A stretch of DNA of 64,000 bases from Psammoneis japonica (lineage: Eukaryota), in contig QPGO01000016.1 in NCBI GenBank assembly GCA_008632985.1, positions 1 to 64,000 of the forward strand, written 5' to 3'. The position numbers and the translations under genes were made by a program. Below, in pieces: positions 1 through 37,714 of this stretch. The notes under the pieces were generated by a model. The model worked only from the letters and a program-made list of their open reading frames with translations, made no database searches and was not told the DNA's origin. Within the stretch, counting starts at the first letter, position 1. The number at the start of each line of letters is the position of its first letter.

Positions 1-1
1 C

Positions 2-793
2 AGCAAATCCAAACCCCAACGCCAAGTTCAACAGAGACAGAGAGAGCAGACAGCATCAATCGAGGCTGCAAAACGGAAAGCTTCGGAACAGCGCGACGAA
101 ATGTTCAAAGTCTGGCATCAACAACAACAAGGGAAAACAATTGGTGAGAGCTTTTCTTTTCAGGATTTTTTGCAATTGAAAGAGATGATTGAGAAACCAC
201 ATGTCGCCATGATTGATGGCTTCGAAGCAGAGGTGAACAGCAGTGGTGCAAACGCCATCAGTGTCGCAATGCGCACAACAATGTCGAACGTGCTCACCGG
301 TTTCAAGCGAAAGGATGCGGTTGCCGGCGCAGCGGGTGCTTCCAAACAACCGCCCAAAAAGAAGAGACGTGGAGCCGTTGTCAAGACAGCACGAGGTGAG
401 AATGCAATTGTTGCTGTGCGCCGTACCAAGACAAGGATGATCGAGGTGGGCGAGGCAGAGCAAATGAAACTGAAGGCTGACATCGCCAAGCAATCGAAAG
501 CGCTCGACAAGTTTGATGCACTTCGCTCCAGTGCGCCTCAGTACGGTGAGTGCGAGACGTTGAAGGGAGATGAGCTGAAGATCTTGATTCGGCTGGTTTG
601 TCCAAACGCCGGTTTGTTAGGGAAGAGCATTGAAGTAAAGAAGAAGGAGCTTAAAGAGCGGAAAATTACAAAAGAACATCTCGACTCTATTTACGTTCAG
701 AAAAGGCGCGATCTCGATGACCTCAAATCAAAGCTTCAGAACTCTTCGGCTGATAGTGATTCTGACGACGAAGACCAAGAAGAATTGCTTTAA
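2..793 (+). CDS. 5'-truncated ORF, Lys-rich coiled-coil with acidic tail; probably the C-terminal part of a DNA transposon protein
   Basis: Frame is open from the window start to TAA at 791-793. Has an NLS-like PPKKKRR and a DSDSDDEDQEE tail, and is followed by a terminal-repeat-like palindrome at 954-987. No TpA in 1-423. Confidence 0.45.
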   Translation, partial: SKSKPQRQVQQRQREQTASIEAAKRKASEQRDEMFKVWHQQQQGKTIGESFSFQDFLQLKEMIEKPHVAMIDGFEAEVNSSGANAISVAMRTTMSNVLTGFKRKDAVAGAAGASKQPPKKKRRGAVVKTARGENAIVAVRRTKTRMIEVGEAEQMKLKADIAKQSKALDKFDALRSSAPQYGECETLKGDELKILIRLVCPNAGLLGKSIEVKKKELKERKITKEHLDSIYVQKRRDLDDLKSKLQNSSADSDSDDEDQEELL

Positions 794-953
794 ATGTATA
801 ATCGTCTACATCATCTAGACACTTTGTATGAATTTTCATGAACGGTTGTGATGAGAACCAAATTTCGTTAACTTTTTGTGAGGAGAAATGTGTCAAGTGA
901 TTTTTGATAAACGACCTCGCAACGAAAGAATGTTGCACTTATGGAAGAGACGT

Positions 954-987
954 CCGTTACGTAACGGCTATTTTCTTATCGTAACGG
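954..987. repeat. 14-bp perfect palindrome CCGTTACGTAACGG plus a repeated half-site (CGTAACGG); possible transposon terminus
   Basis: Palindrome at 954-967, second CGTAACGG at 980-987. Confidence 0.5.
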
Positions 988-1338
988 TTGATTGTGCGGT
1001 GCCAGCTGTCTGCTCAACCCACTTGTACCAAGCCACGTAGAAAAATCGCGTAGCGGAAATCCAGTGGATGATAATTCTGTAGAAAGCTACGATGCCTGGT
1101 ATGATAAAAGGAGAATTGGGTCGAGTGATCATCAATCTATTTTATACCAGAGCCTACGTGATTCTACGCCTGACGTCATAATCACTTCAGAGATGGGAAT
1201 CCCCTAGCAGTTCAAGTTGGATTCTTCTGCTTTCTTTTGTCCGAAAACCACCCGTCTGTGCGCAGTGCGCTTTCGCACCCTGACGTCATCCTCATTTTTC
1301 TTGCTCACTTTTTTGGTTGGCGCTCCGTCCATTTCACC

Positions 1339-2142
1339 ATGAGACGCCTTCTCACGTTTCTTGTTGTGCTGACTGTGACACGCGTTGTTCACTCCTTTTG
1401 TCCGAATAACAATGGAGACCCACGAATTGCTTTCACAAAGTCGCGGCTTGAAGCTATTCCGGATGGAACCACCGCTGCCCCAATCGTTTCCGAGGCTTTG
1501 GAAGCCTCGCGGACGTCCTTTTTCATTTGGTTTTTTGGTGCTTCCGGTGCTGCTGGCATTGCCAGAAGCGCCTTTCCTCGCATGTACAAAAGTGTGGTGG
1601 AGATTCAAGAGCTGAAAGATGTCGGACCGACTCTGGGAGGAGAGACGCTTGGATTGAGTCCGATCTGTGGCTATCCGCAAGATTTGTGTCGAGCCGATGT
1701 GGAACAGGTGGCCAACAACCGCATGACAGTGTCACAAATTGTGGCCAAATACCCAGTCGAGGGAAACTTTTTATCGAGCAAAGGCTACCTCACGTTCCCG
1801 GCGTTTGCCCAAGCCAACGAAAAGGCCAATCCGCTCGCTGTGCGTGCCGTTTTTGATTCCTTTGCACAAAGCACCGACGCGGTCAACCCTGATGTAGCAC
1901 AAGACAAGCTTGATTCTTACAAGGAAAATGTGGAGAGTCTAAAACCGATACTTGTAAAGTCCAAGTTGGTTGGTATTGCGGCTATTGTAACGCTGTTGTT
2001 TCTGTTGGGATTGGCAGACATTGTGGCCTTTGGTCACGCATATGACGGTTGGTTTCCCGAGTGGCCGGGTGGTCGCAATTTTCCAGCTTGCATGATTGAT
2101 CCAGAGACTGGTCCATGGACAATACCAAAATATTGGATCTAA
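1339..2142 (+). CDS. Plastid-targeted membrane protein of unknown function
   Basis: Signal peptide MRRLLTFLVVLTVTRVVHS followed by F (ASAF-like cleavage). Two hydrophobic segments; intact ORF. Confidence 0.75.
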   Translation: MRRLLTFLVVLTVTRVVHSFCPNNNGDPRIAFTKSRLEAIPDGTTAAPIVSEALEASRTSFFIWFFGASGAAGIARSAFPRMYKSVVEIQELKDVGPTLGGETLGLSPICGYPQDLCRADVEQVANNRMTVSQIVAKYPVEGNFLSSKGYLTFPAFAQANEKANPLAVRAVFDSFAQSTDAVNPDVAQDKLDSYKENVESLKPILVKSKLVGIAAIVTLLFLLGLADIVAFGHAYDGWFPEWPGGRNFPACMIDPETGPWTIPKYWI

Positions 2143-2202
2143 ATGAAGTAAATTTATAAACTGCTAGTCGCATTTAGCGTCGTCGACCGCAGTCCGAGTG
2201 TG

Positions 2203-3405
2203 TCAAATCATCATGGAGGCAACGGTGAACCCCGTCCCGCCTACAATCAACGCACCCGCTCCACCCACCGCAAATGGACGCCATCCGACACCCTTGAGAG
2301 ATGATGCCGATGTTGATAGACCAACACCCGCCATGGCTGTTCCCAATGCATACTTGGACAAGTCGTTTCCGATGAAATTCATTGCATCATGATACGTAGC
2401 AGCATCCGATCCCAAAAAGTAATAGTCGCCGCATGATCGAAAGGTGGACATTCCCACAAAGGCCACCAAAAAGGTTGGAACGTATTTTTGAAAAGTAGCA
2501 AGTCCTGATATCGTCTCTTGGCTCTTTGACGACTCGTCAGCGTTCTTATCCACACTGACTCCTTTTCGATGGACATACGTGAGAGCCGGTATCGCAAAGG
2601 CGAGTCCCAGATTACGAGTCAGTTTTGTGACTGCCGCCACCTTTAAGGCTACTTCATCATCAAAGGTTTCATAATACGACATTGCCGAGCCCAGCACTTG
2701 CGATGTGTCGTGAATGGCCACTCCCAAGCACATGCCGACTTGTTCGGAAGCTCCTCCACACAATTCGTGAAACAAGTACGGATACAACAACATGCCAAAC
2801 GTTCCAAACGCAACCGTATTGGCAACCGCAACCGCTGTGTCTCGAGGAGACGCCTTTATAGCTGGTGTCAAGGCTGTAATGGCCGTGACACCACAAATGG
2901 ATGTCCCTGCCGTCAGCAAGAGGCTCATTTCTCTGGGAAGACCGGCATACTTTCCCAACGCTGGAATGACAACTAGACCCGCACCAACACTGGCCAGCAC
3001 TACGGGAATACCATTTGATCCTGTTGTAAGCAGTTCCACAAAACTGAGCTTGGCAGCGACAGCGACGATCCCTCCTTGTAATATCGATTTTGTCGAAAAC
3101 GTAATGCCCTTTTGGAAACTGTCCGGGTATCCTGTGCTGTTTCGAATCGTCATGCCGAGGAGAATAGAGAGCGGAATACCAGAAACGGGAACACCGAGTG
3201 AAGCACTCAATATAGATGCTGCTTGAAAGCCTGCTAGAGACGTTGTAGCCGAAAGTGCAACCCCAGGAAGAATCGAGGCGCTCTTGGCTTGCTCATTTTT
3301 TGTTGAGAAGAAACAAACATCCGGCAGAGCAGTTGAGGTGCAAACTGAATGCAATCTTTTCCTCCAGATAAATGATAGGCACGGTTGATGCGTCAGTAAT
3401 CTCAT
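2203..3405 (-). CDS. YeiH/UPF0324 putative sulfate exporter family membrane protein
   Basis: Motifs LLTAGTSICGVTAITA, GVAIHDTSQV, VTKLTRN and TAMAGVGL; about 10 TM segments; N-terminal extension. Confidence 0.88.
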   Translation of the reverse strand: MRLLTHQPCLSFIWRKRLHSVCTSTALPDVCFFSTKNEQAKSASILPGVALSATTSLAGFQAASILSASLGVPVSGIPLSILLGMTIRNSTGYPDSFQKGITFSTKSILQGGIVAVAAKLSFVELLTTGSNGIPVVLASVGAGLVVIPALGKYAGLPREMSLLLTAGTSICGVTAITALTPAIKASPRDTAVAVANTVAFGTFGMLLYPYLFHELCGGASEQVGMCLGVAIHDTSQVLGSAMSYYETFDDEVALKVAAVTKLTRNLGLAFAIPALTYVHRKGVSVDKNADESSKSQETISGLATFQKYVPTFLVAFVGMSTFRSCGDYYFLGSDAATYHDAMNFIGNDLSKYALGTAMAGVGLSTSASSLKGVGWRPFAVGGAGALIVGGTGFTVASMMI

Positions 3406-3920
3406 AATGATGATGATTGATGAAAGCAAATCACGAAATGCACCCGTTTACCCCGCCCATCATGCCCAGTGATAATGTTCGGGGATTCTCGATGAGTCAG
3501 TCCAGTCGCGTGAGTCGATTTCAGCATGGCTGCATAACATACCGTAGATTAAAAATTTGTATAATTTCAATGAAGAATGATTTACTATCAGAAAGGTGAA
3601 CGATTCACATGAAATGTAACTAATGGCAGAGTCGTGAAACAGCTACTATGTTAAATGACAAAGAAAGCTTCTCTTTATAATCTCCTAGACATATTAGACG
3701 TACTTACGGAATACAAACTGCAATATATGTAGAATAATAAATGTCGGAGTTGCACAGAATCGCTGATCGCCGGTAACGAGCGGTTACTTCGCCAGAAAGC
3801 ATCCGTCGCCAAGTAGTCGTATTTCGTATTTCTCGTCACAAAACATGAGACGAAACTAACCACACAAAATCTCAATCAGACCCATCATAACAGGCCATCG
3901 AGAACAAGATTTTTAAAAGT

Positions 3921-4661
3921 ATGATTTCTTTCTTACGCTGGATGATTCCCGTTGCGGTGCTAGGCATGTTGCACTCGCATTTGCCTGGATCGGTGGTTAC
4001 TGCGACCAGTCATGGCAATCGGTATGTACCTGCCAATTACAGCTCACTGCTCTGCCATCTTCCATCACAAATTTTGACTGACTTGCGTTTCGTCCCTTAC
4101 TTAATCAATCTTGTTCATTGTTTAGTCGAATGAGAAACTTGAGTGCTGTCAACATGGATCGTGAGTTGTCCTCTAGAGCTCCTAATCGCGAGTTGTCCTC
4201 TATGGGGGCTCCTTATCGTGAGTTGTCTTCTCGAGCTCCTTATCGCGAGTTGTCCTCTAGGGCTCCTAATCGCAAGTTGTCCTCTAGGGCTCCTAATCGC
4301 GAGTTGGAATCTTCGAGAGCACCTGGACGGTAAGTGCTCTTCGTGTTCAAATTACAGCGCAATGTTCTGTATACTCGTACTTTCACAACACATTGTTTCT
4401 GACTTGAATTCGGCCGTCAATCAATTTTGTTCATGTTTTAGTCGTAAGAGAAACTTGGCTGAGGTCAACAAGGGTCGCGAGTTGTATGCTTCGTCCAGGG
4501 CGCCCCGGCGGTGAGTTACAAATTCGAAACACAGCGTGAGCCCGCTGTTTTGTCTTGTTGTCCTATCACATTATAAACTCACACGGTCATAATATCATCT
4601 CTATTTTAATCAATACAGCCGGATGAGGAGGAGGAGGAATTTGAACGCCATCAATCATTAG
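3921..4661 (+). CDS. Secreted RXL-motif polyprotein (about 139 aa) with SSRAP[N/Y] peptide repeats; 4 exons
   Basis: Exons 3921-4021, 4126-4329, 4442-4510 and 4619-4661, all introns GT-AG phase 2. Spliced product: signal peptide, then RNL, REL/RKL x6, RNL, REL, RNL; ends NAINH*. Confidence 0.8.
4160..4324 (+). repeat. Coding tandem repeat, 27-30 bp unit x6 (RELSSRAPN)
   Basis: cgYgagttgtcctctagRgctcctWat units are directly visible. Confidence 0.95.
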
Positions 4662-4968
4662 AGTTTCCGCGTCACTACGAGTTGAGTTGTTCTCATACAA
4701 AGAGTACAACGCAAGACTAGAACGATACATCGACCGCACTGTCCTCACTTTGAAAGCGGGAAACAGTGCATGAGATTAGCAGTAGAACATTATTCGTAAC
4801 GATTTTAGAAAAAGACATTAACATCTGAAGAAACAATCAACACTAACGTGTTTGATGCCGTTCAAAATGATTGTCTCCCGTGTTGGTTTTTGTCTCTTAC
4901 TGTATGCAGTCACAGGCTTATAGACTGGACTTGTTGTCGGTCGTAATGTCATCTCAATGTCAATGCAG

Positions 4969-5023
4969 CCGGAGGAGGAGGAATGGGGAGAGGAGGAGGA
5001 GCTTGAATGCCATCAATCACTAG
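4969..5023 (+). pseudogene. Duplicated terminal exon of the RXL gene (RRRRNGERRRSLNAINH*); alternative or relic exon
   Basis: Homologous to 4619-4661, including the upstream intron end and 3' UTR, with an AG acceptor at 4967-4968. Confidence 0.7.
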
Positions 5024-5082
5024 AGCTCCCATGTCACAACGAAGAGAGTTGTTCTCACACACAAAGATCGTTGCCCCAGATA

Positions 5083-7709
5083 CTCTCTCCCAGCCGGGAG
5101 TGTCTCGTGCATTGGCGCCATTTGTTGCCACGCCATTCTGTGCTGTCTTGTGGATGCACCTCCCACCTTTCTTTGTTGTTTTGACTGCAGCCAGGCCTGT
5201 CTTGCCACACCTCGCAAATGGTGCCTTTTCATGAGGATCACATCCTCAGAGTTGTGGTCTGAGTTGCCATCAAGCTCACCGTGTGCACCAAAACTGGCAT
5301 GGCTTTTCCTCTCTGGTCCATCTGCTGCTCTTTTCCTCCTTGTTGGCCACATTGGGTCCTCTTTCACTTTCTTGTGGCTCATGGTTGTTGTGCTCCTCTC
5401 AGCATGTCCAATTTTTCTCCTTGGTTGTGTGCGGCACTCAGCTTCACATGTGGCCATCATTGTGTGCACCACGTTCTTGCACCGTCGGGAGTTGCCAGCT
5501 CTGTCTGACCAATGCTGGCCTCATTCACATGTGTTCACACCTGAAAGGTTCAGTGTCAAAGTGAAATTTTGCAACATGCTTTGGAGTTTTGCTGATTTTT
5601 CTGTGAATGCATGCCATCGCGACAACGAGTGCGTGGGGGAGATTCAAACTTGGATTTTGTTGTCATCATCAAGCAAAATGTGAGCACAGAAGTTGGGTGG
5701 GGCTGTGTTTGCAGAACTGATGTGACATTGGCCCTGCCTTGCATTCACTTCCCAAGCAACTTCACATGCTGGTCTGGCAGGATGGGAAACACCACGGAGC
5801 TGCAGAGGCACCCCCAAAGAGATGCCACAATGTGACAAAAATTGAAAACTCTCCACTCCCAACCCCATCTGTGCACAGTGAAATGGGAGCCAATTGCTTG
5901 GCACTGGTGATTCCAAGCATGGTCCTGCATCCCAATTGCTTCACCTGCTGGCAACCATTTTCATCATGGCAACATCACGAGTCTGTGTGTGGTTGTGGAC
6001 ATTGCATGTGCACCAGGCCATCTCCATGTGTTGCATCAACAGACTGGAGATTCTTCCACTGTGCCATGTGGTCATTGGAGTGCAGACAGCCAAGGCAGTG
6101 GCAGGACATTTGTTGGATGATTTGTGCAATGTGCAACTTGAACAACAGATCTCTGTTGGCTCTTGTGCAGTCACAGGCTTCCACAAATTTGACAGGGCCA
6201 GCCTCAAACACAATTGCCACTAAAAATGGTTTTCTCCTGCTTTGGCAGCTGGCACATTTGTGGTGGTGGCAGTCCCATGCTTCCAAATGTTGAAGATTTG
6301 ACTGGGCCACCCTCAGCAATCTTCCTTTCACCATGCATGGCTTCCACTGTGTGGCATGTTCCATGTGTCACATTCATCAAGAAGCACATTGGCGCCAATT
6401 TCTCATTCTTTTGCAGCACTTTTGATGGCTTTGGGTGCCATTTTGAGGCTCCTGCCATGCACAAGGCAGTGGCTTTTCAACTCACATTGTCGTGATCCTT
6501 GCCATGCCATCTGTGAACAACAAAGAAAACAATGATCAAACAAGCCACATTTCTTTGTCCCCACAAGGTTGACAATGCAACCTTGACCACCTGCTCAAGA
6601 ACACTGCCAACAAGGACCCCAACATGAGCTTTTTTGGACAAAGCTCCTCCTCCCAACAGAGTGCACACAGTTGGAAATCATCAACACAGAACACAGCAGT
6701 CAAGGTGCTTCAAGCAAAGTTTTTTGTTCCACAGCACTGGCTGCAATGGACAGAATGCCTCCTCTCATCATGCCAAGTTGCAGCCTGGTTGCAGCCACTC
6801 AAAAAGCAAACATTCTTTCTGGCGCTCTTTGTGGTGGCACTCTTTGTGCAGTTTTGAAGGGCACCAAATGTTGACAGAAGGTGGTGCTCATGTGTTGCCT
6901 TCAGCCAATGCAATCCAGGAAACCAAGAACTCCAGTTGAAGTTTTTTCCATGGCATGAGCTGCATTGGACAGAATGCTGCTTCTCACAGCACCAAATTGC
7001 AACCTGGCCACTGCTGTCAAAAAGGGAACACGACATGCCAAATGTCAACAGAAGACAGTTCCTGCCCTTTGTGATGACAATCTGGCAGCTCTCAATCTTT
7101 TGCTTTTTCCACATTGTCTGGCCACTCCATGCAGTTTGGATCTGAGGCTTGTGCGCATCTGATGCGACATTTTCTTGCACCCCATGTGCACCTGACAACA
7201 CAGCTTTGAAACTCAAGAGGGGACATTTTTCTCCAAACACAAACATTTGCTGCACACACCAGAGAACCTGCCAAATTGCATGGCTCAGGAACCCCGCCAC
7301 CCCAGGCTGGCTCTGGCACATGCTGTCCTTGCCCTGTCCACTTCAAGAAAAGAGAGATGTCAGTCAGAAAGCTCTGCCAGGCCACCAGGAAGAGAGAGAC
7401 AGTGGCTCTGTGCTTGCACGTCAGCTCAGAAAACCAAAATCTCCAACCAGAGTTTGTTTGACAACTGGCAAAATCATGTTGAGAATGGCATGGCCAGTGC
7501 TGCAGCTGCTGGTGCCAAGCGCTCGGACCAACCCTCTCAAAGCAGCGGCACAAGCTGCACCCCATGCTCCTGGTGCATGGCCGGCCACAGACCAAAGAGA
7601 AGGGGCACCACCACTCTCTCAGGTGTGGTCACTGTGAGAGGCATCTCATGATGATTCAGAGCAAAGCACGTCATGACAGTGCAGGCTGTTCATGAGCCAT
7701 TGCGGCGAT
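5083..7709. mobile_element. TpA/CpG-depleted island 1; decayed element, possibly PIF/Harbinger-like on the minus strand
   Basis: One TpA (6221) and about 30 CpG in about 2.6 kb. Minus-strand remnants WPDNVEKAK (about 7100-7125) and GVLGFLDCIG (about 6905-6935) resemble the DDE_Tnp_4 first-Asp region. The composition is certain; the family call is weak. Confidence 0.55.
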
Positions 7710-7841
7710 TAACGGTTGACGGTTTGTGCCTTTCGCCCTTGCTGCCGCTCTTGTTTAGCCCACTCGAGTCGCTCGAACAACACCGAATGATCGGGTTCCA
7801 CGCGCGATCACCAATTTCTTTTTCTGCATTTCACTATCGAA

Positions 7842-7870
7842 AGTACAGTTTTGGATGACAAAACTGCACT
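7842..7870. repeat. Hairpin, 12-bp stem and 5-nt loop, at the right edge of island 1
   Basis: AGTACAGTTTTG-GATGA-CAAAACTGCACT; the single stem mismatch is TA versus CA. Confidence 0.75.
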
Positions 7871-8101
7871 GTTAATCGCCGAAGTGATCGTGAAAACGTT
7901 TGACTGTCTTCTCTACAGAACTTGTCAAATGTCGTACTGTATATTAGATATTATGATCTACATAGTATATTTATTAAGAATCATATTTTTCATGTAATAT
8001 GGTATTGAATACTAATTAGTCATTTCTTTCCTGTATGTATCTATATATACAATATTAAATTCTGGACATTCCTCAGGTACAGAGAATGACTCCGCTTTTT
8101 T

Positions 8102-8164
8102 TTTGGCGGTCGCCTCGCCACAAAATGCCCGTCGCCAAAAACGCAAAAAACCTCGGCCGCCAAA
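8102..8164. promoter_or_regulatory. Inverted pair of E2F-consensus-like sites (TTTGGCGG) upstream of the second RXL gene
   Basis: TTTGGCGG at 8102-8109 and CCGCCAAA at 8157-8164, about 65-130 bp before ATG 8230. Confidence 0.3.
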
Positions 8165-8229
8165 CTTCGTCGCCTCACAATTTTGCAAAGCACGGGGCAA
8201 CAACAACACACAGCACTCGAACTTTTACC

Positions 8230-10337
8230 ATGTTTTTGTTACGCTGGATTGCTCCCATTGTGGTGCTAGTCTTGATGCGTCCTGGAACGATGGTTGCTGC
8301 GGCGGGCGGCAAGATCAAGGGAGCGAAACCGGACGACGTCAACAAGAATCATCGTCAATTGACGGATGGTTTGATCGACAAAATACTTTGCCATTTTGGA
8401 CATTCAACGTGCAAGACGAAGAAATCCAAGAGATCCAAGAAGAAGAAGAAGTCCAAGAAGAAGAAGAAGAAGAGCAAAGGCAAGTACGGGGAAGAAGAAA
8501 TGTACGACTCTCTTCCCGATGCCCCTCCAATGTCGGGCGAGGAGCTTGTGGCCTTCATGCACGAATTGATGGGCAGCCTTGGTGCTGAACACGAAGGCCT
8601 CTCCCCTGGTGCCAGCGAACCTCCTCCAACGCAAGACGAGATTACGGCCATGATGGAAGAATTGATGGCCAACATTAGTGCTGAACTCGAAAGCTTCGAA
8701 CCTCCATCGTCGGGCGAAGAGCTTATGGCCATGTTGAGCGAATTGTTGTCTGGTATTCCTGAGGATGTTAGTCTTCCCGATGATCTTCCGGATGATCTTC
8801 CCGATGATCTTTCGACTCGTCCACCTTCGACCCGAGCTCCATCGAGCAGAGCTCCATCGAGCAGAGCTCCGTCTCCCGAAGGTCGACGGTGAGTAGTTGT
8901 GTTTTCTCACAATATCTATATCTACAATGCAACGTGACGCGTTCTTTTTGTTGTTTCTCGACGTGCGACTCTCACGCATCGGTGGTTTTCATTTTTTTAT
9001 TATTTTGTACAGCCGCATGAGGAAGAGAAAGTTGGCTCTTCCCAATTCCCCTCCCATGTCGGGCGAGGAGCTGCTCAGACGCATGAGAAAGAGGAAGTTG
9101 TCCGATTCTTATCCAACGTCGGGCGATGAGCTTATGGCCTTGATGAACGAATTGATGGGCAGCCTTGGTACTGAACTCGAAAGCCTCTCCCCTGGTGGTG
9201 CCCCCTTGGATGACATTGAAGCTGCTGTTCCTGCAATGTCGCCCGAGGAGATTACGGCCATGTTGGAAGAAATGATGGCCAGCATTGAAGCTGTTCCGGA
9301 AATGTCGCCCGAGGAGATGACGGCCATGGTGCACGAATTGATGGCCAGCATTGGTGCTGAAGTCGAAGGTTTCGAACCTCCAACGTCAGGCGAGGAGCTT
9401 ATGGCCATGTTGAGTGGATTGTTGTCTGGTACTCCGAGGAACCTAGTCTTCCCGATGATCTTCCCGATTCTTCGACTCGTCCGCCTTCCTCCAGAGCTCC
9501 GACGCCCGACGGTCAACGGTGAGTAGTTGTTGTGTTTTCTCACAATATCTACAATGCAATGCGACGTGTTCTTTTTGTTGTTTCTCGACGTGCGACTCTC
9601 ACGCATCGGTGGTTTTCACTTTTTTTATTATTTTGTACAGCCGCATGAGGAAGAGAAAGTTGGCTCTTCCCAATTCCCCTCCCATGTCGGGCGAGGAGCT
9701 GCTCAGACGCATGAGAAAGAGGAAGTTGTCCGATTCTTATCCAACGTCGGGCGATGAGCTTATGGCCTTGATGAACGAATTGATGGGCAGCCTTGGTACT
9801 GAACTCGAAGGCCTCTCCCCTGGTGGTGCCCCCTTGGATGACATTGAAGCTGCTGTTCCTGCAATGTCGCCCGAGGAGATTACGGCCATGTTGGAAGAAA
9901 TGATGGCCAGCATTGAAGCTGTTCCGGAAATGTCGCCCGAGGAGATGACGGCCATGGTGCACGAATTGATGGCCAGCATTGGTGCTGAAGTCGAAGGTTT
10001 CGAACCTCCAACGTCAGGCGAGGAGCTTATGGCCATGTTGAGTGGATTGTTGTCTGGTACTCCCGAGGAAGCTAGTCTTCCCGATGATCTTCCCGACGAC
10101 GATGATGATGCTATTTCGACTCGTCCGCCTTCCTCCCGAGCTCCATCTTCCAGAGCTCCGACGCCCGACGGTCAACGGTGAGTAGTTGTTGTGTTTTCTC
10201 ACAATATCTACAATGCAATGCGACGTGTTCTTTTTGTTCTTTGTCGACTTGGAACTCTCACGCATTGGTGGTTTTCAATTATTATTTGTACACACAGCCG
10301 CATGAGGAAGAGGAACTTGGATGCCATTCAAAACTAG
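8230..10337 (+). CDS. Secreted RXL protein with a poly-Lys/Ser cluster and three Met/Glu-rich acidic modules (silaffin-like biosilica protein candidate); 4 exons
   Basis: Exons 8230-8888, 9013-9518 (1-bp deletion near 9434), 9641-10177 and 10298-10337, all phase-2 GT-AG introns. Signal peptide, RQL, KTKKSKRSKKKKKSKKKKKKSKGK, RRMRKRKL sites and SSRAP repeats. Confidence 0.78.
8889..10297 (+). repeat. Tandem intron+exon duplication, about 630-660 bp unit
   Basis: 9013-9430 is nearly identical to 9641-10058, and the three introns are homologous. Confidence 0.95.
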
Positions 10338-10897
10338 TAGGCGTCTGCTCACACGAGTGGTAGTAGTAGTAGTATTTTTTAGAAGAGAAAGGATCGATTG
10401 CTCGACCATGTTTATTTGAAAAGGAGGGCGAGTGCAAGAGTTTTGTTTACAGAGTTTTTTACGACCACGTCGTCGTAGATGTTATAATTATAAGAGATTA
10501 TTGTTGTTATTTCGAGAAAAATAGTCATCATTGTGCTTTCGTTTGTAAATATATAAACCTATACAAGACTTGATGGGGCCCCCTAATGATTGTTGCATTT
10601 CAACAGGATACAATGGTGCTGTCATTATTAGTTGCTCTCGAAGCTCCTACTTCGTACCCTCGAAGTCGTCTCGTTTCTGGCAAAAAGTGAGCGTGAAGAT
10701 CTTGGCGAAAAGTAAGCGAACATGAATTTATCTACAGACACAAATAAATGTATACGTGGTGAAATCTTTGCGATCTTTTGGTGTCACGTAGAAGCCCCGT
10801 ACGATTCTACGTTCGAATCCGGGATTGTCGCCAGCGACATCATCAACGCACATTCATCACGCACTTTCATTTTTCTGGGGCTTGTTTACATGGGCCA

Positions 10898-13800: not shown

Positions 13801-14714
13801 CAGTCAACGAATTCCTCAACGGCGTTGAAGATGAAGACGGATACACGAGGTACCCGCCGTATGGGTACTGCATGCGTGTCTTTATGTTCACAGTGATTAT
13901 TCTCAATGTCGTGGCCGTTCTTGCTGAGAGTATCCCTGCCATTGACAAATACGTTGGAAACGAGAGCGGGAACTTCTTTGATGTGTTTGAAGCCTTCTCG
14001 GTGTTTGTGTTTGCTGGTGAATACATTCTTCGGTTGTTTTGCGCTCCCAAGAATCGCGAGGCGCTCTATTCAACTTATGTTTATGCCACAACCTTCTTTG
14101 GTATTGTTGACTTCTTGTCGACAGCTCCCTGGTTCATCCAAGAGCTTCTAATCGCGACGGGCGTCATCAGTCCAGCGGATGATACTGCAAGGATCTTTCG
14201 AATCTTTCGTGTTTTCCGTATCCTGCAGCTCGAGGACTTTGTTACGGCATTTAGCAAGCTCGACAACGTGTTCAGGGCCTCCAAAGATGTACTCAAGGCG
14301 ACAGGACTCATGGCAATCATTATTTGGGTAGGTTGTGCAGCACTTTTTTACATTTTCGAGGAAGATAACCCCAACTGGCGTTCGTGTGATGATTCCATCC
14401 CACTCAGTAGCGACGATCCCGATGTTCCTGGATGCTATGATTTCGCATCGACTGCAGCATGCAACGAGTTTTATCCTGGCATGTGCTCGCAGGCTGCTTT
14501 CACAAACATGCCAAATTCGCTCTATTATGTGGCTGTGTTTCTCGGCGGGGAGTGGGGTGTCATTGACTTTACGTGGCCCGGAAGGATGGTATGCCTTTTC
14601 CTTTGCGTCGCAGGCATTGCCGTGTACGCCATTCCGATCGGAACACTCTTTGACAGTTTCGGGGCGGTGCTTGGAATGTGTGAAGATGAGGACGAGGAAG
14701 GTGAAGAAGACTAA
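10898..14714 (+). CDS. Four-repeat (4x6TM) voltage-gated cation channel built from Kv-like domains; four 1-bp frameshifts
   Basis: Four S4 segments (LRMFRVFRMMR, LRLLRLLRFEK, LRMLRLLRLVK, RIFRIFRVFRIL) and four Kv-type S6 segments (FALPAGIIGNGF and equivalents). Frameshifts near 11851, 12526, 12883 and 13263. Confidence 0.88.
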
Positions 14715-24945: not shown

Positions 24946-25056
24946 GTTGCTGCTGCTCTCTTTTTTGAAAAAAAGACGACGTTAGAGTTTATTGCGTCGG
25001 CTTGTTGCGCTCATCTTCATCATTGCGACCGCGTGATGATGTACCGGTACTGTGTA

Positions 25057-25980
25057 TGAATGAACACTCTTTGTTTTCCGCCCGTTTGTCGTCCGGCTCG
25101 AAATTTTTGTCGTGCGTGCATGGGACAGCACCGGTGACATGCAGGGTCAATCAATGTTTGCTTTGTCCAGTTGCTCCAACAGCATCCTCTCCTGAAAATG
25201 CCCAAGTTGGAGCCATGCCCTCTGGGCTTCGTGCTTCCTTGGTGTGCTGGCATGCAGCGCCGCGAGGGGTGCTGCACGGTGTCTCACTGTGTTGCTCAGT
25301 GGATGTGCGCCGCAGCATGCTCACCATTTGTTGCAGAATGTTCAAGCGAGCACAGCCAGAAGTGCCCTCAAATTGGAGTGTGCATGAGAATGGCAGCCAA
25401 TGTTTTGCAAGCTGGCGTGCTCAATGCCAACCCTCCTGAAAACCTTCAAAAGTTGTGTGAGATTGAGGACAACACCTTGGCTGCAGCTTCCTGTGCCCCA
25501 CACTCCTCTTGGCTGCTGGTTTTTAAGATCCTCTGCAGGGGCCTCTTTGGGTGCTTTTGTTTTGCACCAGCCATGGTGTGGTCATTTCTGAACCCCTCCC
25601 AACACCGCCGGCAGCAGATTTGGCTGTGCAGCTCAAGCCAGCACACCAAGCATTGATGGGTGAGAACTTTGATGGCAGAGTGTAAAATGACAATCCTTTG
25701 CCTGCCAAGTTGGACAGGGTGCTCTGACCAAGTTGTCCCCATTGATCCCGGGAAGAAGCTGGAGGCTCGAGTGGCTGACGCACCCATTTGGAACAGAGCA
25801 AGCACCACATGCTGGTGGGATTGTCTCAGATTTGCGGGCACCACGAGCAATTGAACAGATCAATGTTTGCCAAGTGATGCCATTTTGGAGCTGCAGATTT
25901 TCTTCCCAACACCTGCGTTTCCCTCATTGCTCCTGGTTTGATTTGAATTTGTTTGGCCAGGCCAGCCAGCGCTGCTGCAG
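25057..25980. mobile_element. TpA/CpG-depleted island 2; decayed repeat of unknown family
   Basis: Only 2 TpA (25524, 25683) in about 920 bp. CpG is kept at the edges and reduced in the centre. Confidence 0.5.
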
Positions 25981-26173
25981 AGTAGAGCAGCGAGCAGAGC
26001 GAGCTGTCCACAGGTCAAGGAAGCACATGCGACCATGTCTGAATCAAGCGCGGCGGCCCCAACTATCTCCCGCCAACTCGTCGTCAAGGGATGACGGATG
26101 ACCGCGATCAGCGATGAGTGAAATGCGACGCTGACAATGATTTTAAAGCTCAGTCGAAGCATAAAACGATGCC

Positions 26174-32290: not shown

Positions 32291-32388
32291 GAAAGTCTTA
32301 GTCGAGCGAGTCAAAGTGCAGTCGAATGGGTCAAATGCGTTTTTGTTTTTGTTTTTGTGCGACGATGAGGGAGGGGCTTAGCACTTTA

Positions 32389-35300
32389 CTGTTCGTCCAC
32401 TGTGCTTCCGCATCAGTCGACAACAGCTGGGGATCTGCAATTGGCAATTTGTCGAAGAACAGGCTCAAGGTGGTGCAGGTGCAAAAGTGGGCCAGATTCC
32501 ATGCAAATGGAAACTTGGTGTGTTTTCCACACAAATTGCCAAAGCCACCTCGCCAACTTGAACCCTCTCCTCCCGGATGATGGAAACCTGAACATTTCAA
32601 ATGACAGAGTGTCCAGACTGCTCAATTGCACTCTCCTTGACATGTTTCCATGCATTTTTGGAGACATGCGCCAAATCCAATCAGAAAGGTGCCAAAATTG
32701 CGACGCTCGAGTTTGTCAGAGCTGTGGCAAATGACGGTGTTGCCCATGTGCTCAAATGCTGTCACGCCAGCTGGAGATGTTCAATGTCGAGAGTCCAAAG
32801 CCAAAGCACAAAGCACAGCTTGCAAAGCAATCTGTTGCTGACACTGCACTGGTGACAACAACAACAAGCACAAGCCACACCAGCGGCACTGGGTTGAAGA
32901 CAAACATGCATGTTGACTGAAGCTGCGAACTGCAGAGCTCACACATGGAATTCTGCAGGCAAATGTCACAAAAAGTCCCGCCTGGGGCTGGAGCACATCA
33001 TCTGCACTCTGCATTTGTGACAGAGCTGGGCAAAAACTTGAGATGCTGTGAACAGCAACATCTGAGCTTGTTCACTCAAAACAATCAACAATCAACTTGA
33101 CAGCGATTGCTGCTCAGTGCTGCTGGCACCCCTTCTGCCACAGCATCGCAAAGCCAACTCGTGTTCCTTCTCCAGGAGAGCATCTTGTGAGAATGAGAAA
33201 AAGCTGGGCATGCCAGAGATTCAGCATGCTGTTCAACCATGTTCTGCAGAGGGGTCATGGGGTGGGGTGCCTTGTCTCCCAGCACTGCAGCTTTGATGCA
33301 GCACACATGGCACCACACACACAACACCATGCAGAGAGTGATTGTGGTTGTTGACAAAACCTCTGTGTTGCTGTGTGCGCCACCTTTTGAACAAAATCAC
33401 TCCCTCTGTGGTGCTGAAGCCATTGTGGGGTGGTGTGTCTTTTCAGCAGCCAGGTTTTCAAAGAATGTGCAAATGGGCAGTGCAGCATTTTCAGCTGCCC
33501 TGACTTGTCTCAAAGAAGAGGGTGCAGGGGTGCATTGCTCTCAAGCAAAAACAAGCACAGCAGCTGCTGTCTGCTGTGCATGCATGCACAACATCATGCA
33601 GCCAACAACCTGCACACATCACAGTGAGATGTCACGCCACATCAATGTCAGATCTTGTGTTGCAACACTGACACAGGTCCACAGCATCCTCAACTCAAGC
33701 AAGGCTGGTGGCCAGTGTGCCCATGCTGCAGCGGAACTTTGACCCAGCAAAAACCCAAACATTTGTGGCTGTGTCTTTTTTGTGACAAAGCATGCTGAGT
33801 GATGGCTCCTGACAGCCCATGGAGCACTTCAACGGCTGTCCCCTGTGGCCCATGCAGCTCTCTCTCTCCTTCAGGCTGTGCTCACGAGGTTGCACCTGCT
33901 GCAAACAACACACACTGAGCACTTTGTCTGTTCTCCCCACTGTGTGTTTGCACATGCCAGACAGCAGCACATGCCAACATGTTTGTGCCAGCCATCCACA
34001 TCAGTGCACCATGATGTGCCTCTGTGCACAGGACACATTGAGGCCATCACCATGGACAAAGCGCTTTGTCCAATCACAACAGACACAACATTGTGCAACT
34101 TTGAAACTTGATGACATTTTGTCAAGTGAGGTGTTCAAGCAAACCTTGGCTGGCCACCTTTGAAATGAAAGTTGGCCGGGCCAGCTTTGGAGTGAAAGTT
34201 GTCAGGCCTGGCTGACCAACTTTGGAGTGAAAGTCAGGCGAGCCAATGGATGAGAAAAGGAATCTCAGTGGCCTTGACCCAGGTTCAAGAAAAACACAAT
34301 TCTCTTTGTTTTTTTTTAACCTGAAATGCCTCAACAGAGCTTTCTGTGCAGGCACATGCTTGCTGACAAGCTCTGAGCAGCCAAAGAGCTTTGCCCCATG
34401 AGATGACAACAAAAGGCAACACCGCTGCCACTTGCTCAGTTGTCCATGATGACAATGTGGTCAACCAACCCCAACAATCAACAACAATGGAAAGATCTGG
34501 CATCTGCACATTGCACCATGAAGAGGCATTTTGTGATTGATTTCCAAGACAGCACTCAGGGCAAAATCGCTCATCAGGGTGGGCCAAAATGAACAGAAAG
34601 CTTTCTGTTGCTGCATTCTTTCACAGCAAACTCATGCTCACACTTGTTGATTTGGTTGCAACATGACCCTCTGAGAGACCAGAATGTGCTGCATCATGGT
34701 GAACCCCTCTTTTGGCTGTCGCGTTGCTTGCCCAAGCTTCATTTCCTGGCATTGAAGAAAAGCACATGGTTGAAATCATGCAGAAAAACAATTTTTGCTG
34801 GACTCAACAGGAAGAAACTTTGTCTTAGAATCACCCGCTGTTGCAACCATCCACATCATCAGAAAGCACTTTTTCTTTGGCTTTTCAGCCATGTGATTTT
34901 CTGAAAAAGTTGAAAAAAGTCAACAAACCTCCTTTTCTGATTCGCTGGTTCAGATCCAACTTCAAGACAGGACAAGCACCAGCTCCTTCCTCAGCCACTG
35001 CTTGTGTGTCTTCTTCATGGCATGTGTGTGGCATGGATGGTGTGACTCAGTTGTCAAGAGTCTTGTGGCTGATGTCCTTGCACAAAATGCACCTCATTGA
35101 ATTGTCAAACTCTTTCTGCTGCAATGACCCCCCATCATGGACAAACTGCTGCAGCTCTTGTCTTGGTGGCCTGCCCAGGCACTTTTCCCACTTGCTTGCC
35201 CTTCTCTTGGTCTTTGCACTCACTGCACAATGCGGGCAGATGACTGCAATTTAACTCATCTTGCTCAGCAAATTTGGCCTCTGGGTTTGACGAGCCCGCT

Positions 35301-37460
35301 GTTTCAACACAAGTCCAAATGACCAATGATGACTCACATCTGATGTTGAAGAAGCACGCTTGCAGCCTGCAAGAAACGGAGTCAAGAAATCTCAAACAAA
35401 AGCACCCCAGCTGCAGACAGCTCTTCTTCCTTTCCTCCTTCACCTTCTAAGACCCAGTGCTCAAAATGCGAAACTGTGAAAAAAGGCATGCTCATGAATG
35501 ACAACTTGTTGCACCTCTGCAAAGATGTCAACAAAGTCATCACAAACCTCTCAAAATGACAAAGATTGTGCATGATGGCAAAGACACTCAGCCTGTGGCA
35601 AGGGCACCACAGACTCCTCCCGCCATGGCACCCACCTGTGGATGCATCATCTGCAGATGCAGGGACAGCCAAAAACGCTCAAATTGTCAAATTGTGCAAG
35701 CACTGGATCTGGGGACATGCCATGCATTCAAAAACACACCCGGGGATTTGCAAGTGCAGCCCCACACACAGAGATTGGCGAGCACTCCTTGAGACATGAG
35801 GGAGCCTGCTGCATGATCAAGGAAGATTGCACCATCAAGCAGAAACTCCTTGATGGGTTGTCTCTGTCTTTGAGCACAGATGGCACATCATGGTGCTGGC
35901 TGCCAGCCATCTCTGCTTTGTGGCATTTGCTGACAGAGCTGAACAAGAAGTCAACACTGGTGTGTCTGAGCTCCACTCCAAACAGCGGCACATGCTTTTC
36001 CCCTGAAACAATGAAAAAACAACAAGTGGCTGCAAATGTTGGCTGCAACCACTGTGACCTCAATGTGTCCTGTGCACTGTGCACAGAGCAGGCACATGCT
36101 GTGCAAGGGCCAATGGCACAAACATGCTGGCGCGCGTCTGGCACGCACCAACACACATGCAGTGGGTGAAACAGACAATGTGTTCAGTGTGCATTTTGCA
36201 CACAGATGCAACCTCATAAGAAGAGCCATAGACTGCAAAGAGCAGATGATGTTGAAGTGTCCTGTGGACTGCCAGAAGCTGTCTCTCAGCACAACTTGCT
36301 GTGAAAAAGACATGGTCACAAATGTTTGAGTCTTTCAGTCAGAGTGCCTTTCCAGCATGAGCGCTGACCAACCTTGAGTCAAGGATGCTGCACACCTGCT
36401 GCTCCATTGCAACACAAGATTTTTCATCCCACTGTGTTGTGTGCCATCATTGTTGGCTCCATGTTTTGTGTGCATCATGCACAGCAGCTGCTGTTTTTGT
36501 TTTTGCTTCAGAGCAATCATGTGCCACCCCTCTCTTCTTTGAGACAAAACAAAGCAGCAGCCAGCAGCTGAAAATGTTGCACCACTTGTGCACATGTTTG
36601 AAACTAAGCTGCTCAAGAAACAGACCACACAAGGCTGCTGCGCCACAGGTGGAGGGTGACTTTGTTTGAAAGGCAGCACATGCAGCAATTTCGAGGAGGT
36701 TTTGTCAGAAATCACAGTTGCCAGACATGTTGTGTGTGGTGCCATGTGTGTCACATTAAAACCACAGTGCCAGGAAACAAGGCAACCTGCCACAAATTCC
36801 TTTGCAGAACATGTGTCAACAGTGCACTCTGAACCACTGTAATGTGCCCCGCTGCCAGCTTGTTTTGACCATGAGAAAGCAAAGTGCAGGTGCTCCTCAC
36901 CATGGACAAAGTGCTGCCAATCAAAACAAATGCAACACTGTGCAGCACTGTGCAGCTTTGAGACTTGATGACATTTTGTCAAGTGACATGTTGTCCACAC
37001 TTTTGTTTTGACAAAAAGCAAGCATTCTTCAAAAATGATTTTTTGTGCCATCCAAGGAACAGGGAAAGTTGCTTGGAAGGTTGGCGCAACAAGATGGCAA
37101 AAAACAAACACAGCAATGCTGTGTTTTGGTCAAAACTCAACAGCCACTTGATGTTTGTTGTTTGTCATCATCATTGCTGGAGCTTTGTCAATGGAATGCT
37201 TGGCGCTCTTTCCATGTTCAAGAGCGTCAGCCAAAAATTGGATCCACATCAAGGCCCTTGCAAAGCCAACACAGATCACTGCACCAGATTTGCTCAATTT
37301 CAAAGTCAACATCTTGATCATCAGTTTGAGTTCACATCTGCCAATTGCTTCAGACAATCGCCATGTGAGCAGGGTCTCAGGCATTTGTGCACCATGAACG
37401 TTGATGGCCCCACCTGTCTCAGAAAGGCTGTTGAAGAGCCAAGGACGGCAGGGCAAATTT
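32389..37460. mobile_element. TpA/CpG-depleted island 3; nested or rearranged decayed repeats
   Basis: About 8 TpA in about 5.07 kb; contains diverged internal inverted and direct duplications. Confidence 0.65.
33200..36990. repeat. Diverged inverted repeat (about 33200-34050 versus 36050-36850) plus direct repeat (34046-34130 versus 36897-36990)
   Basis: CACACATGGCACCACACACA and GTGCACAGGACACATTGAGG are shared in inverted orientation. ACTTGATGACATTTTGTCAAGTGA is identical in direct orientation. Confidence 0.8.
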
Positions 37461-37714
37461 TACCAAAAATGTGTGTGCCAAACTAATTCCATTTAGGCGC
37501 TAAAGATTCAATTTGATGTGGCAACCCCATGCAGGTCATTCCGACTCACTGCAGCATCTAAAACACTCCAAGACTTGCCGTGTTGTAAATTCATGCTTCT
37601 CGGATGCCCTGGCCATGACTACATCAATATAAAATGATTTGTCTACAAAATCATTCTCCACGTGACACCAAAGAGAGGATCCAGTGACGGTGCTTTCTTC
37701 CACTTGGCGGCTAC

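What the first reader, a model, noticed from the sequence alone, without database searches (positions are those of the whole stretch)
5083..7709. Near-total TpA erasure with CpG depletion: candidate repeat-targeted 'inverse RIP' hypermutation system
Seen: by manual scan there is 1 TpA in about 2,620 bp (about 160 expected at equal base frequencies) and about 30 CpG, with abundant TG/CA and sharp edges. ORF translations inside have no Tyr and excess Cys/His. Established: 5mC deamination explains CpG to TpG/CpA, and fungal RIP creates TpA; neither removes TpA. Inference: a second, stronger process converts TpA to TpG/CpA (A to G after T) in decayed elements. Candidates are a TadA/ADAT-like DNA adenine deaminase or pol-eta-type error-prone repair coupled to methylated DNA. 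The effect would destroy Tyr codons, TATA boxes, poly(A) signals, branch points and TA/TAA transposon target sites. I know of no description of this but could not search.
Basis: partly seen in the sequence, partly recalled or inferred. Interest (0 to 1): 0.93.

Follow-up and report, generated by a model that had tools for sequence, protein, structure and literature searches.

The report
TA-free hypermutated islands in diatom-like DNA
Several non-coding stretches of this diatom-like genome have had virtually every TA step, and most CG steps, turned into TG or CA, the end state of a TA-specific hypermutation so far measured directly only in one unrelated alga.

Summary
Window 5082-7710 holds 1 TpA (about 164 expected from base composition, 112 at the local background rate) and 31 CpG (about 163 expected). 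The missing TA+CG (294) matches the excess of CA+TG (290). Three more islands lie in the window (1-424, 25055-25983, 32387-37461), so islands make up 14% of it. Read-derived contigs of a public run carry the same sequence, so it is not an assembly artefact.

The islands are non-coding and lie between ordinary host genes of a diatom/bolidophyte-like stramenopile. Several results point to mutation rather than native composition:
- The total number of YR steps is unchanged.
- CA and TG are interleaved at random.
- Two diverged repeat arms inside one island differ by CA<->TG double changes 27 times, against about 5 expected.

TA loss has razor-sharp edges. CpG loss is graded and can be absent (1-424), so these are two separate processes.

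A 2026 preprint measured TpA->TpG/CpA hypermutation of integrated viral DNA in Bigelowiella natans. This case shows the same signature in another lineage, run to saturation and overlaid with CpG decay. The enzyme, the targeting and the in-place timing are inferred.

The parts
5082..7710 (.). Island B, the finding itself: 2.6 kb, TA-free and CpG-poor, non-coding, lying between divergently oriented host ORFs (2203-3429 on the minus strand, 8086-8892 on the plus strand).
   Evidence: TA rho 0.01, CG 0.19, CA 1.92, TG 1.85. No Pfam hit in six frames. RY period-3 power 0.97, which is the random level. The longest ORF, 203 aa, matches the roughly 217 codons expected by chance when TGA is the only stop.
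6221..6222 (.). The only TpA left in island B.
6508..6509 (.). A site where the window reads CA and the X1 contig at the same locus reads TG. This is an adjacent double transition, as expected if an ancestral TA or CG was resolved differently in two haplotypes or strains.
4945..5081 (.). Left margin of island B, with 2 TA in 137 bases. It contains copy 2 (4987-5066) of an 80-base direct repeat.
   Evidence: Relative to copy 1, copy 2 has lost 3 of 4 CG (to TG/CA) and 2 of 3 TA (one to CA, one to AA).
4625..4704 (.). Copy 1 of the 80-base direct repeat, lying in ordinary DNA. It serves as the unmutated comparator.
   Evidence: Transition-tolerant local alignment scored 115, against 41-45 for 6 shuffles. 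Identity is 81%.
1..424 (+). Island A: a TA-free stretch with normal CpG inside an open reading frame (2-793). It is cut by the window start.
   Evidence: TA is 0, against 11.5 expected from the protein sequence and host codon use; 0 of 20000 simulations reached 0. CG rho 1.0, CA 1.48, TG 1.50. RY period-3 power is 5.0, which is coding-like. Many further X1 contigs lie on 1-1334.
25055..25983 (.). Island C, 0.9 kb. Its first 365 bases have 0 TA but still 17 CG.
32387..37461 (.). Island D, 5.1 kb, with 9-13 residual TA and CG rho 0.2.
   Evidence: No Pfam hit in six frames.
33214..34046 (.). Arm 1 of the diverged inverted repeat inside island D.
36055..36839 (.). Arm 2 of the same repeat, in inverted orientation. 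Identity to arm 1 is 71%, rising to 89% once purines and pyrimidines are pooled.

Best explanation
The islands are stretches of inserted or repeated non-coding DNA in a diatom-like nuclear genome. A TpA-specific transition process has acted on them almost to completion: A to G after T, on either strand, giving TpG or CpA at random site by site. A slower, separate decay of CpG to TpG/CpA, the usual fate of methylated CpG, is superimposed. The TpA process is most likely the same kind of locally targeted hypermutation that was measured in Bigelowiella natans, and it most likely acts on the DNA where it now lies. A DNA-acting adenine deaminase that prefers a 5' T is the leading candidate. Shown here: the composition, its restriction to discrete blocks, strand symmetry, conservation of YR steps, conversion after duplication of the repeat arms, and the uncoupling of TA loss from CG loss. 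Inferred: the enzyme, what marks the DNA for attack, CpG methylation, and action in place rather than before integration.
For: 1. The missing TA+CG (294) equals the excess CA+TG (290) in island B. Total YR steps are about 250 per 1000 in the islands against 242 in the background. So TA and CG were exchanged for CA/TG by transitions, not removed in other ways.
2. CA and TG alternate at random (runs test z 0.24, 0.25 and -1.0) and are equally frequent (binomial P 0.33, 0.075, 0.09). Both strands are therefore hit independently at each site, as reported for B. natans.
3. In the repeat arms of island D, 43 adjacent double transitions were found. Of these, 27 are CA<->TG against 5.1 expected (P 1e-11), while the other classes give 16 against 19.1 expected. 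A simple model of independent conversion in each arm, scaled from the 9 CG and 3 TA kept in one arm only, predicts about 26 discordant pairs; this is my own arithmetic.
4. AA, AT, TC and CC are not depleted, so the process is specific to TpA.
5. TA loss is complete right up to the edges, whereas CpG rho is 0.27-0.64 in the outer 200-400 bases and 0.14-0.24 in the cores. Stretch 1-424 has no TA and normal CpG.
6. All 4 listed differences between the window and X1 contigs in 1-600 are TA or CG against TG/CA. This includes TG (window) against TA at 416 and TA (window) against TG at 543.
7. Precedent: de novo mutations fell only on TpA, at about 1000 times the baseline rate, in integrated viral DNA of B. 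natans, and 124 TpA-poor, CpA+TpG-rich clusters were found in its genome.
Against: No de novo or polarised TA->TG/CA change was seen at the finding's own locus. None of the 10 differences between the window and the X1 contigs inside island B involves a TA, so erasure there was finished before those haplotypes split, or before integration. No less-mutated copy of island B could be obtained. The CA<->TG discordances could in principle come from CpG alone; the split between CG and TA ancestors rests on 9 and 3 sites. The islands show no viral or transposon domain, so 'foreign DNA' is not shown. Few X1 differences were listed in 1-424, so that stretch may be TA-poor in the whole gene family (263 rows were not shown). 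In 162.8 kb from 23 related eukaryote-like metagenome loci, only one partial parallel was found.
Confidence: 0.6

Rival explanations
1. The blocks were already TA-free when they integrated. Either they were edited earlier (on viral, episomal or cDNA forms) or TA-freeness is the native composition of the element. Only the CpG decay happened in place.
For: The TA edges are razor sharp, as at insertion boundaries. No TA polymorphism appears among the 10 differences inside island B, while 3 CG-against-CA/TG differences show CpG decay in place. Stretch 1-424 may be TA-poor across its whole family.
Against: The arms of island D lie in a single block yet carry independent CA/TG resolutions in the number expected if all conversion followed their duplication. 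The left margin, 4945-5081, is a partly converted copy of adjacent ordinary DNA. Both TA-against-TG and TG-against-TA differences occur among genomic copies at 416 and 543. RNA-stage editing would be clustered by strand, which is not seen. In B. natans the process acts on integrated DNA.
Confidence: 0.2
2. There is no dedicated editor. Instead, a chromatin-linked, context-dependent replication or repair bias in silenced DNA slowly drives both palindromic YR steps (TA and CG) to CA/TG.
For: Both self-complementary YR steps end in the same product, and both losses occupy roughly the same blocks.
Against: TA loss and CG loss are uncoupled in space and in degree. Removing 99% of TA needs a very large rate bias, as measured in B. 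natans. The pol-eta WA pattern, as I recall it, predicts AA loss, which is absent.
Confidence: 0.1
3. Selection keeps these blocks free of TA and CG because the sequence has a function, for example excluding TA-targeting transposons or a structural role.
For: The state recurs four times in 64 kb, always between genes.
Against: The blocks share no sequence similarity. There is no Rfam family and no coding signal. The repeat arms have drifted to 71% identity. Differences between the window and the X1 contigs are about four times denser inside island B than in the left flank: 10 in 2.6 kb against 3 in 3.5 kb.
Confidence: 0.04
4. The pattern is an artefact: base-calling or polishing errors on modified DNA, or modified bases read as G.
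For: TA and CG are typical sites of base modification. Only one sample holds the sequence, and it may be the source sample.
Against: Contigs built from 31-letter words of the reads carry the same interleaved CA/TG pattern at about 99.5% identity and at the same depth as the flanks, about 56-60. A base read as G on each strand would instead give one all-TG and one all-CA version, not a fixed interleaved order; this is my inference. The flanks are normal.
Confidence: 0.03

Closest known systems
TpA-restricted hypermutation of integrated NCLDV and virophage DNA in Bigelowiella natans (bioRxiv 10.64898/2026.01.13.699255). I read the abstract, Introduction, Results and Discussion, plus a term search. 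The supplements are closed.
   Same: Only TpA is hit, giving TpG or CpA according to strand. The effect is confined to discrete regions of an otherwise ordinary nuclear genome. It leaves TpA-poor, CpA+TpG-rich clusters, many of them without annotation.
   Different: In B. natans the rate was measured directly in mutation-accumulation lines; here there is only the end-state signature. The measured B. natans regions are far from saturated (TpA rho 0.45 in the NCLDV region), whereas here rho is 0.01-0.06. The host here is a diatom/bolidophyte-like stramenopile, not a rhizarian. CpG loss is superimposed here, and the preprint's text never mentions CpG. No viral or transposon domain is recognisable here.
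Repeat-induced point mutation (RIP) of ascomycete fungi. Its features are recalled; the preprint discussion also describes it.
   Same: Local, saturating transition mutagenesis of particular DNA blocks with sharp limits. Parts of the blocks seem to be repeated in the genome.
   Different: RIP turns C into T, mainly at CpA, and so creates TpA. Here TpA is destroyed and CpA/TpG are created, which is the opposite polarity.
Deamination decay of methylated CpG in silenced repeats. CpG methylation is documented in Phaeodactylum (passage in PMC6604790). That it sits mainly on transposons is recalled.
   Same: CpG rho of 0.14-0.24 with a gain of TpG/CpA. Three CG-against-CA/TG differences between the window and the X1 contigs show that this is still going on.
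   Different: It cannot remove TpA. CpG loss is graded, and it is absent in 1-424 where TA is nonetheless gone.
ADAR hyper-editing of double-stranded RNA. The preference for a 5' U is stated in the preprint discussion; other details are recalled.
   Same: A to G change with a preference for a preceding U/T.
   Different: ADAR also edits after A, but AA is not depleted here. Editing of an RNA copy would give strand-clustered changes, and none are seen.
tRNA adenosine deaminases TadA/ADAT2, with DNA activity reported for amphioxus and trypanosome ADAT2 as cited in the preprint. That the natural tRNA target A follows a U is recalled.
   Same: The required chemistry (A to inosine, read as G) and a fitting 5'-T context.
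   Different: No such gene lies in the window: 17 ORFs scanned gave no deaminase domain. No genome is held in which to look for one.

Membership tests
B. natans-type TpA hypermutation | Changes are restricted to TpA and go to TpG or CpA | tested here: met
   This test is indirect, from the end state. TA rho is 0.01-0.06, CA and TG are 1.7-2.0, AA/AT/AC/AG are near 1, and the YR total is conserved. Three of the 5 aligned residual TA in the island D arms face CA/TG.
B. natans-type TpA hypermutation | Both strands are hit, giving a mix of TpG and CpA | tested here: met
   CA 321 against TG 296 in island B. Runs tests gave z 0.24, 0.25 and -1.0.
B. natans-type TpA hypermutation | [quoted passage not shown] | tested here: met
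   Four blocks totalling 9057 of 64000 bases. Background TA rho is 0.61 and CG rho 1.01.
B. natans-type TpA hypermutation | A directly measured de novo rate far above baseline | not testable with these tools
   This needs mutation-accumulation lines or population data. The one run that could be laid shows no TA-related difference inside island B.
B. natans-type TpA hypermutation | The target is foreign DNA (virus, virophage or transposon) | tested here: inconclusive
   No Pfam hit in six frames and no codon periodicity. Extra lower-similarity contigs on 4670-6670 and 1-1334 hint at repeats.
Fungal RIP | C to T at CpA, with a gain of TpA and loss of CpA/TpG | tested here: not met
   TpA is lost and CpA/TpG are gained.
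Methyl-CpG decay alone | Only CpG is depleted | tested here: not met
   TA is depleted more strongly than CG, and also where CG is normal.
ADAR-type editing of an RNA intermediate | A to G after U or A, clustered on one strand | tested here: not met
   AA rho is 1.2-1.3 and there is no strand clustering.
Pol-eta WA signature (motif recalled) | A:T to G:C at both TA and AA | tested here: not met
   AA is not depleted, and AG/CT are not enriched (1.01).
AID/APOBEC editing (motifs recalled) | C to T in TC, CC or WRC contexts | tested here: not met
   TC is 0.94 and CC 0.88, close to the background values of 1.10 and 0.88. C loss is confined to CpG.

The most novel reading that the evidence does not exclude
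Diatom-like stramenopiles run a saturating adenine-editing genome defence, a mirror image of RIP, that erases every TpA in marked DNA. It acts faster than CpG-methylation decay and independently of it. Because the same signature is produced de novo in a rhizarian alga, the system would be old and widespread in the SAR supergroup, and its enzyme could be found by comparing the two lineages.
Probability: 0.45. Interest if true: 0.85.

Novelty: new member of a known kind. Interest (0 to 1): 0.68.

Why it matters
TpA-specific hypermutation has so far been shown in a single species, and its enzyme is unknown. Fully converted islands in a distant algal lineage would have several consequences:
- They would show the process is not a quirk of one strain.
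- They would show what its end state looks like: no Tyr codons, no TAA/TAG stops, no TATA or AATAAA words, and frames that stay open because the process cannot create stop codons.
- They would show it is separable from CpG methylation decay.
- They would give a simple genome-scan criterion for finding it elsewhere: long TA-free runs at ordinary GC content with CA/TG near twice expectation.
- They would give a comparative route to the responsible gene.

The result also warns annotators that long ORFs in such DNA are meaningless.

Tried and rejected
**Data that could not be obtained or gave nothing**
- Whole genome: none is held, so no genome-wide scan or deaminase search was possible.
- Pfam: six-frame scans of islands B, C and D gave nothing below E = 0.07.
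- Rfam at gathering thresholds: 0 matches.
- Similarity of island B to the rest of the window, by blastn and by a transition-tolerant local alignment: only the 80-base repeat at the left margin was found.
- A search in purine/pyrimidine words found no further copies.
- A degenerate 30-letter motif from 6036-6065, allowing TA or CG at each CA/TG, gave 0 matches in metagenome contigs.
- I fetched 80 loci around relatives of the neighbouring PF03601 gene (458,080 bases). The 23 close eukaryote-like loci total 162,803 bases. Only L001 4251-6832 shows a partial parallel; the hits in L045 and L053 are GC-rich with normal CpG and were set aside. The L001 island has no similarity to the window's islands.
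- ORF 2-793: no homologue in the word-based search. Five weak HMMER hits (E 1.6e-7 to 7.6e-4) have no informative Pfam family. At 21-25% identity they were too distant to polarise Tyr/His/Cys changes.
- Expression: no RNA holder is listed. Run X2 behaves like RNA but has no cover on 4003-8004. No conclusion is drawn from this.
- Earlier findings of this scan: nothing for this genome or sequence. One phage case with a similar word bias turned up.
- The single-gene tree is only the quick version, and the window's place in it is unresolved.

**Explanations considered and rejected**
- GC-biased gene conversion: GC content is unchanged and the effect is specific to context.
- Transcription-coupled mutation: there is no strand asymmetry.
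- Pol-eta, ADAR, APOBEC and modified-base read-through: see the membership tests and rival explanations.

**Literature searches**
- Four searches gave only the B. natans preprint for TpA hypermutation.
- A fifth search found the Phaeodactylum mutation-accumulation paper. Its text has no occurrence of the term TpA, and it names CG as the most mutable context (passages only).
Full report
**1.
In window 5083-7709 I count 1 TA, against 164.3 expected from base composition. There are 31 CG (162.6 expected), 321 CA (166.9) and 296 TG (160.1). Every other dinucleotide lies between 0.85 and 1.27 of expectation. The single TA is at 6221, and the bounding TAs are at 5081 and 7710.

At the window's own background rate (0.0428 TA per base), 112.5 TA are expected, giving P(<=1) = 1.5e-47. 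In 1000 shuffles of the island the lowest TA count was 128. Six-frame translations contain no Tyr. Cys is 6.4% and His 5.8%, against 3.6% and 3.5% next door. The missing TA and CG (163 + 131 = 294) equal the surplus of CA and TG (154 + 136 = 290).

**2. It is not alone.**
The same state occurs in three further places:
- 25055-25983: TA rho 0.06, CG 0.40.
- 32387-37461: TA rho 0.03, CG 0.20.
- 1-424: TA 0, but with normal CpG (rho 1.0).

Together these blocks make up 9057 bases, or 14% of the window. [quoted passage not shown] The remaining DNA is ordinary, with TA rho 0.61 and CG rho 1.01.

**3. It is real DNA.**
One public run, X1, holds 87% of the sampled words of 4200-8600. Its read-derived contigs cover 1619-5674 and 5659-8893 at the same depth as the flanks, about 56-60. 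They differ from the window by 4 letters in 4057 and 16 in 3247. X1 may come from the source sample, so it is not fully independent. Even so, the small differences show it is not the same consensus.

A modified base that is read as G on each strand would produce one all-TG version and one all-CA version. It would not produce the fixed interleaved order that both data sets share. That argument is my inference.

**4. What the blocks are.**
The neighbours are ordinary host genes with long uninterrupted ORFs. They include a PF03601 membrane protein, ion-transport proteins, a nucleoside transporter, glycosyl- and sulfotransferases, an aminotransferase and a racemase.

The PF03601 protein is at most 75% identical to any protein in the collection. 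All 5 source-named organisms among the 120 hits listed are diatoms or Triparma. No B. natans protein is listed. A quick single-gene tree leaves the window unresolved among Triparma and unnamed sequences (the careful search did not finish). I therefore call the host a diatom/bolidophyte-like stramenopile.

Islands B, C and D lie between genes. They have no Pfam hit in any frame and no Rfam family. Their codon periodicity in purine/pyrimidine coding, which transitions cannot erase, has mean power 0.97, 0.24 and 0.97, where 1 is the random level. Ten of the 14 host ORFs score a mean above 2.5. The ORFs of up to 203 aa in island B are what chance gives when TGA is the only stop, with about 217 codons expected.

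Extra X1 contigs of lower similarity lie on about 4670-6670 and especially on 1-1334. This suggests related copies elsewhere. Summed depth is not a copy number, however.

**5. Evidence that the state arose by mutation.**
(a) YR steps as a whole are as frequent in the islands as outside (about 250 against 242 per 1000). Within nearly every flanking context, the TA and CG counts have simply moved to TG and CA.

(b) CA and TG are interleaved at random (runs tests z 0.24, 0.25 and -1.0), with no significant excess of either.

(c) Island D contains two diverged inverted arms. Over 753 aligned positions there are 535 identities, 137 transitions and 81 transversions. Identity is 71%, rising to 89% once purines and pyrimidines are pooled. 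Of 43 adjacent double transitions, 27 are CA against TG. Independent single changes predict 5.1 (P 1e-11). The other classes together give 16 against 19.1 expected. This is the mark of an ancestral TA or CG resolved independently in each arm. Nine of the 11 aligned residual CG, and 3 of the 5 aligned residual TA, face CA or TG in the other arm. I scaled from those counts using per-arm conversion of about 0.84 for CG and 0.95 for TA. That gives about 12 + 14 = 26 expected discordant pairs, and 27 were observed. This is my own arithmetic on small numbers.

(d) An 80-base repeat has one copy in ordinary DNA (4625-4704) and one in the left margin of island B (4987-5066). The alignment score is 115, against 41-45 in 6 shuffles. 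The margin copy has lost 3 of 4 CG, all to TG/CA. It has also lost 2 of 3 TA, one to CA and one to AA.

(e) In 1-600, all four listed differences between the window and X1 contigs are of this kind. They are CA against CG at 280 and 344, TG against TA at 416, and TA against TG at 543. A further 263 rows of that table were not shown.

(f) At 6508-6509 the window has CA and the X1 contig has TG at the same locus. At 5624, 5767 and 7577 the window has CA/TG where the contig keeps CG.

**6. Two processes, not one.**
TA is absent right up to the edges of each block. CpG loss, in contrast, is graded. CpG rho is 0.39 and 0.35 in the outer parts of island B against 0.14 in its core. It is 0.64 against 0.24 in island C, and 0.52 and 0.27 against 0.16 in island D.

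Stretch 1-424 is TA-free with CpG at 1.0 and lies in a frame with coding periodicity. Given its protein sequence and host codon use, 11.5 TA are expected, and 0 of 20000 simulations gave none. TA erasure is therefore independent of CpG decay, and faster or more complete than it.

One caveat applies to 1-424. Few differences from X1 copies were listed there, so the whole gene family may share the TA-poor state. Its relatives are too distant, at 21-25% identity, to settle this.

**7. What is against an in-place process at the finding's own locus.**
None of the 10 differences inside island B involves a TA. I could obtain no less-mutated copy of it. Erasure there was complete before the two sequenced versions diverged, and it might even predate integration. 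The sharp edges fit an insertion boundary as well as a targeting boundary.

**8. Specificity of the process.**
AA (rho 1.2), AT (0.78-0.89), AG and CT (about 1.0), TC and CC are not shifted in the way expected from pol-eta WA mutagenesis, ADAR editing after A, or APOBEC-type editing. Those motifs are recalled. GC content hardly changes, so GC-biased conversion is not the cause. One unexplained extra is that the context G-YR-C is 1.8 times commoner in the islands than outside, and GC rho is 1.27-1.39.

**9. What is known.**
My five literature searches gave one description of TpA-specific hypermutation. It is bioRxiv 10.64898/2026.01.13.699255, of which I read the Introduction, Results and Discussion.

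In mutation-accumulation lines of Bigelowiella natans, 231 of 302 nuclear point mutations fell in two integrated viral regions. They occurred at about 6e-7 per site per generation, roughly 1000 times the baseline. Almost all were A->G or T->C, and all of those fell on TpA, giving TpG or CpA. The genome holds 124 TpA-poor, CpA+TpG-rich clusters, mostly unannotated. An ADAT2-like deaminase is proposed as the cause.

The text of that preprint contains neither 'CpG' nor 'diatom'. The Phaeodactylum mutation-accumulation paper (PMC6604790, passages only) reports CG as the most mutable context and has no occurrence of the term TpA. This case is a new host lineage and the saturated end state, with CpG decay on top.

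**10. A possible second case.**
I scanned 793 one-kb windows from 80 loci around relatives of the PF03601 gene. Only L001 4251-6832, at a contig end, combines the three features. Its TA rho is 0.34 (0.14-0.20 in its last 800 bases), against 0.55 in the rest of that contig. Its CG rho is 0.16 against 0.86, with CA 1.83 and TG 1.61. In the quick tree that contig's protein groups near Bacillariaceae and Nitzschia. This is mainly a CpG-decay island with moderate TA loss, so it is a hint and no more. Metagenome contigs also under-sample repeats.

**11. Verdict.**
The best reading is B. natans-type TpA->TpG/CpA hypermutation run to completion on inserted or repeated non-coding DNA, most likely in place, overlaid by slower methyl-CpG decay (confidence 0.6). 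The main rival is that the DNA arrived already TA-free (0.2). Novelty: a new member of a just-described kind whose enzyme and targeting are still unknown. Interest: 0.68.

Noticed in passing
window 1-1334 (ORF 2-793): This ORF belongs to an orphan protein family. The word-based search found no homologue, and five weak HMMER relatives have no informative Pfam family. Many further X1 contigs lie on it, with summed depth of about 900-1000 against 56. Its first 424 bases are TA-free with normal CpG.
   Followed up: partly
window 8086-10238: Tandemly repeated ORFs encode proteins with Ser/Gly/Glu/Leu/Met-rich repeats. Stretch 8918-9435 is repeated at 9545-10063. There are also Lys-rich low-complexity runs, where four window-against-X1 differences cluster (8400-8432).
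   Followed up: no
window 16374-16453: A contig of run X2 skips 78 bases with CT..AC ends, that is GT..AG on the minus strand. X2 covers mainly ORFs, so it behaves like RNA and this looks like a spliced intron.
   Followed up: no
window islands B, C, D: The four-letter context G-YR-C (GTGC/GCAC) is 1.8 times commoner in the islands than outside, and GC rho is 1.27-1.39. TA and CG conversion alone does not explain this.
   Followed up: partly
L001 4251-6832: The end of a related diatom-like metagenome contig is CpG-poor (rho 0.16), moderately TA-poor (0.34, falling to 0.14) and rich in CA/TG.
   Followed up: partly
window 4157-4306: A short tandem repeat gives a spurious Leu/Ile/Ala/Ser/Cys/Pro-rich ORF (4143-4514) in the spacer left of island B.
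   Followed up: no
window 4905-4919 and 6166-6180: An exact 15-base match links the left flank and the interior of island B. The alignment did not extend significantly beyond it.
   Followed up: partly
window 10778-14714: Ion-transport (PF00520) domains lie in ORFs 10898-11875 and 13392-14714. A third ORF, 11860-12792, which I did not scan against Pfam, abuts the first and may belong to the same channel gene.
   Followed up: no
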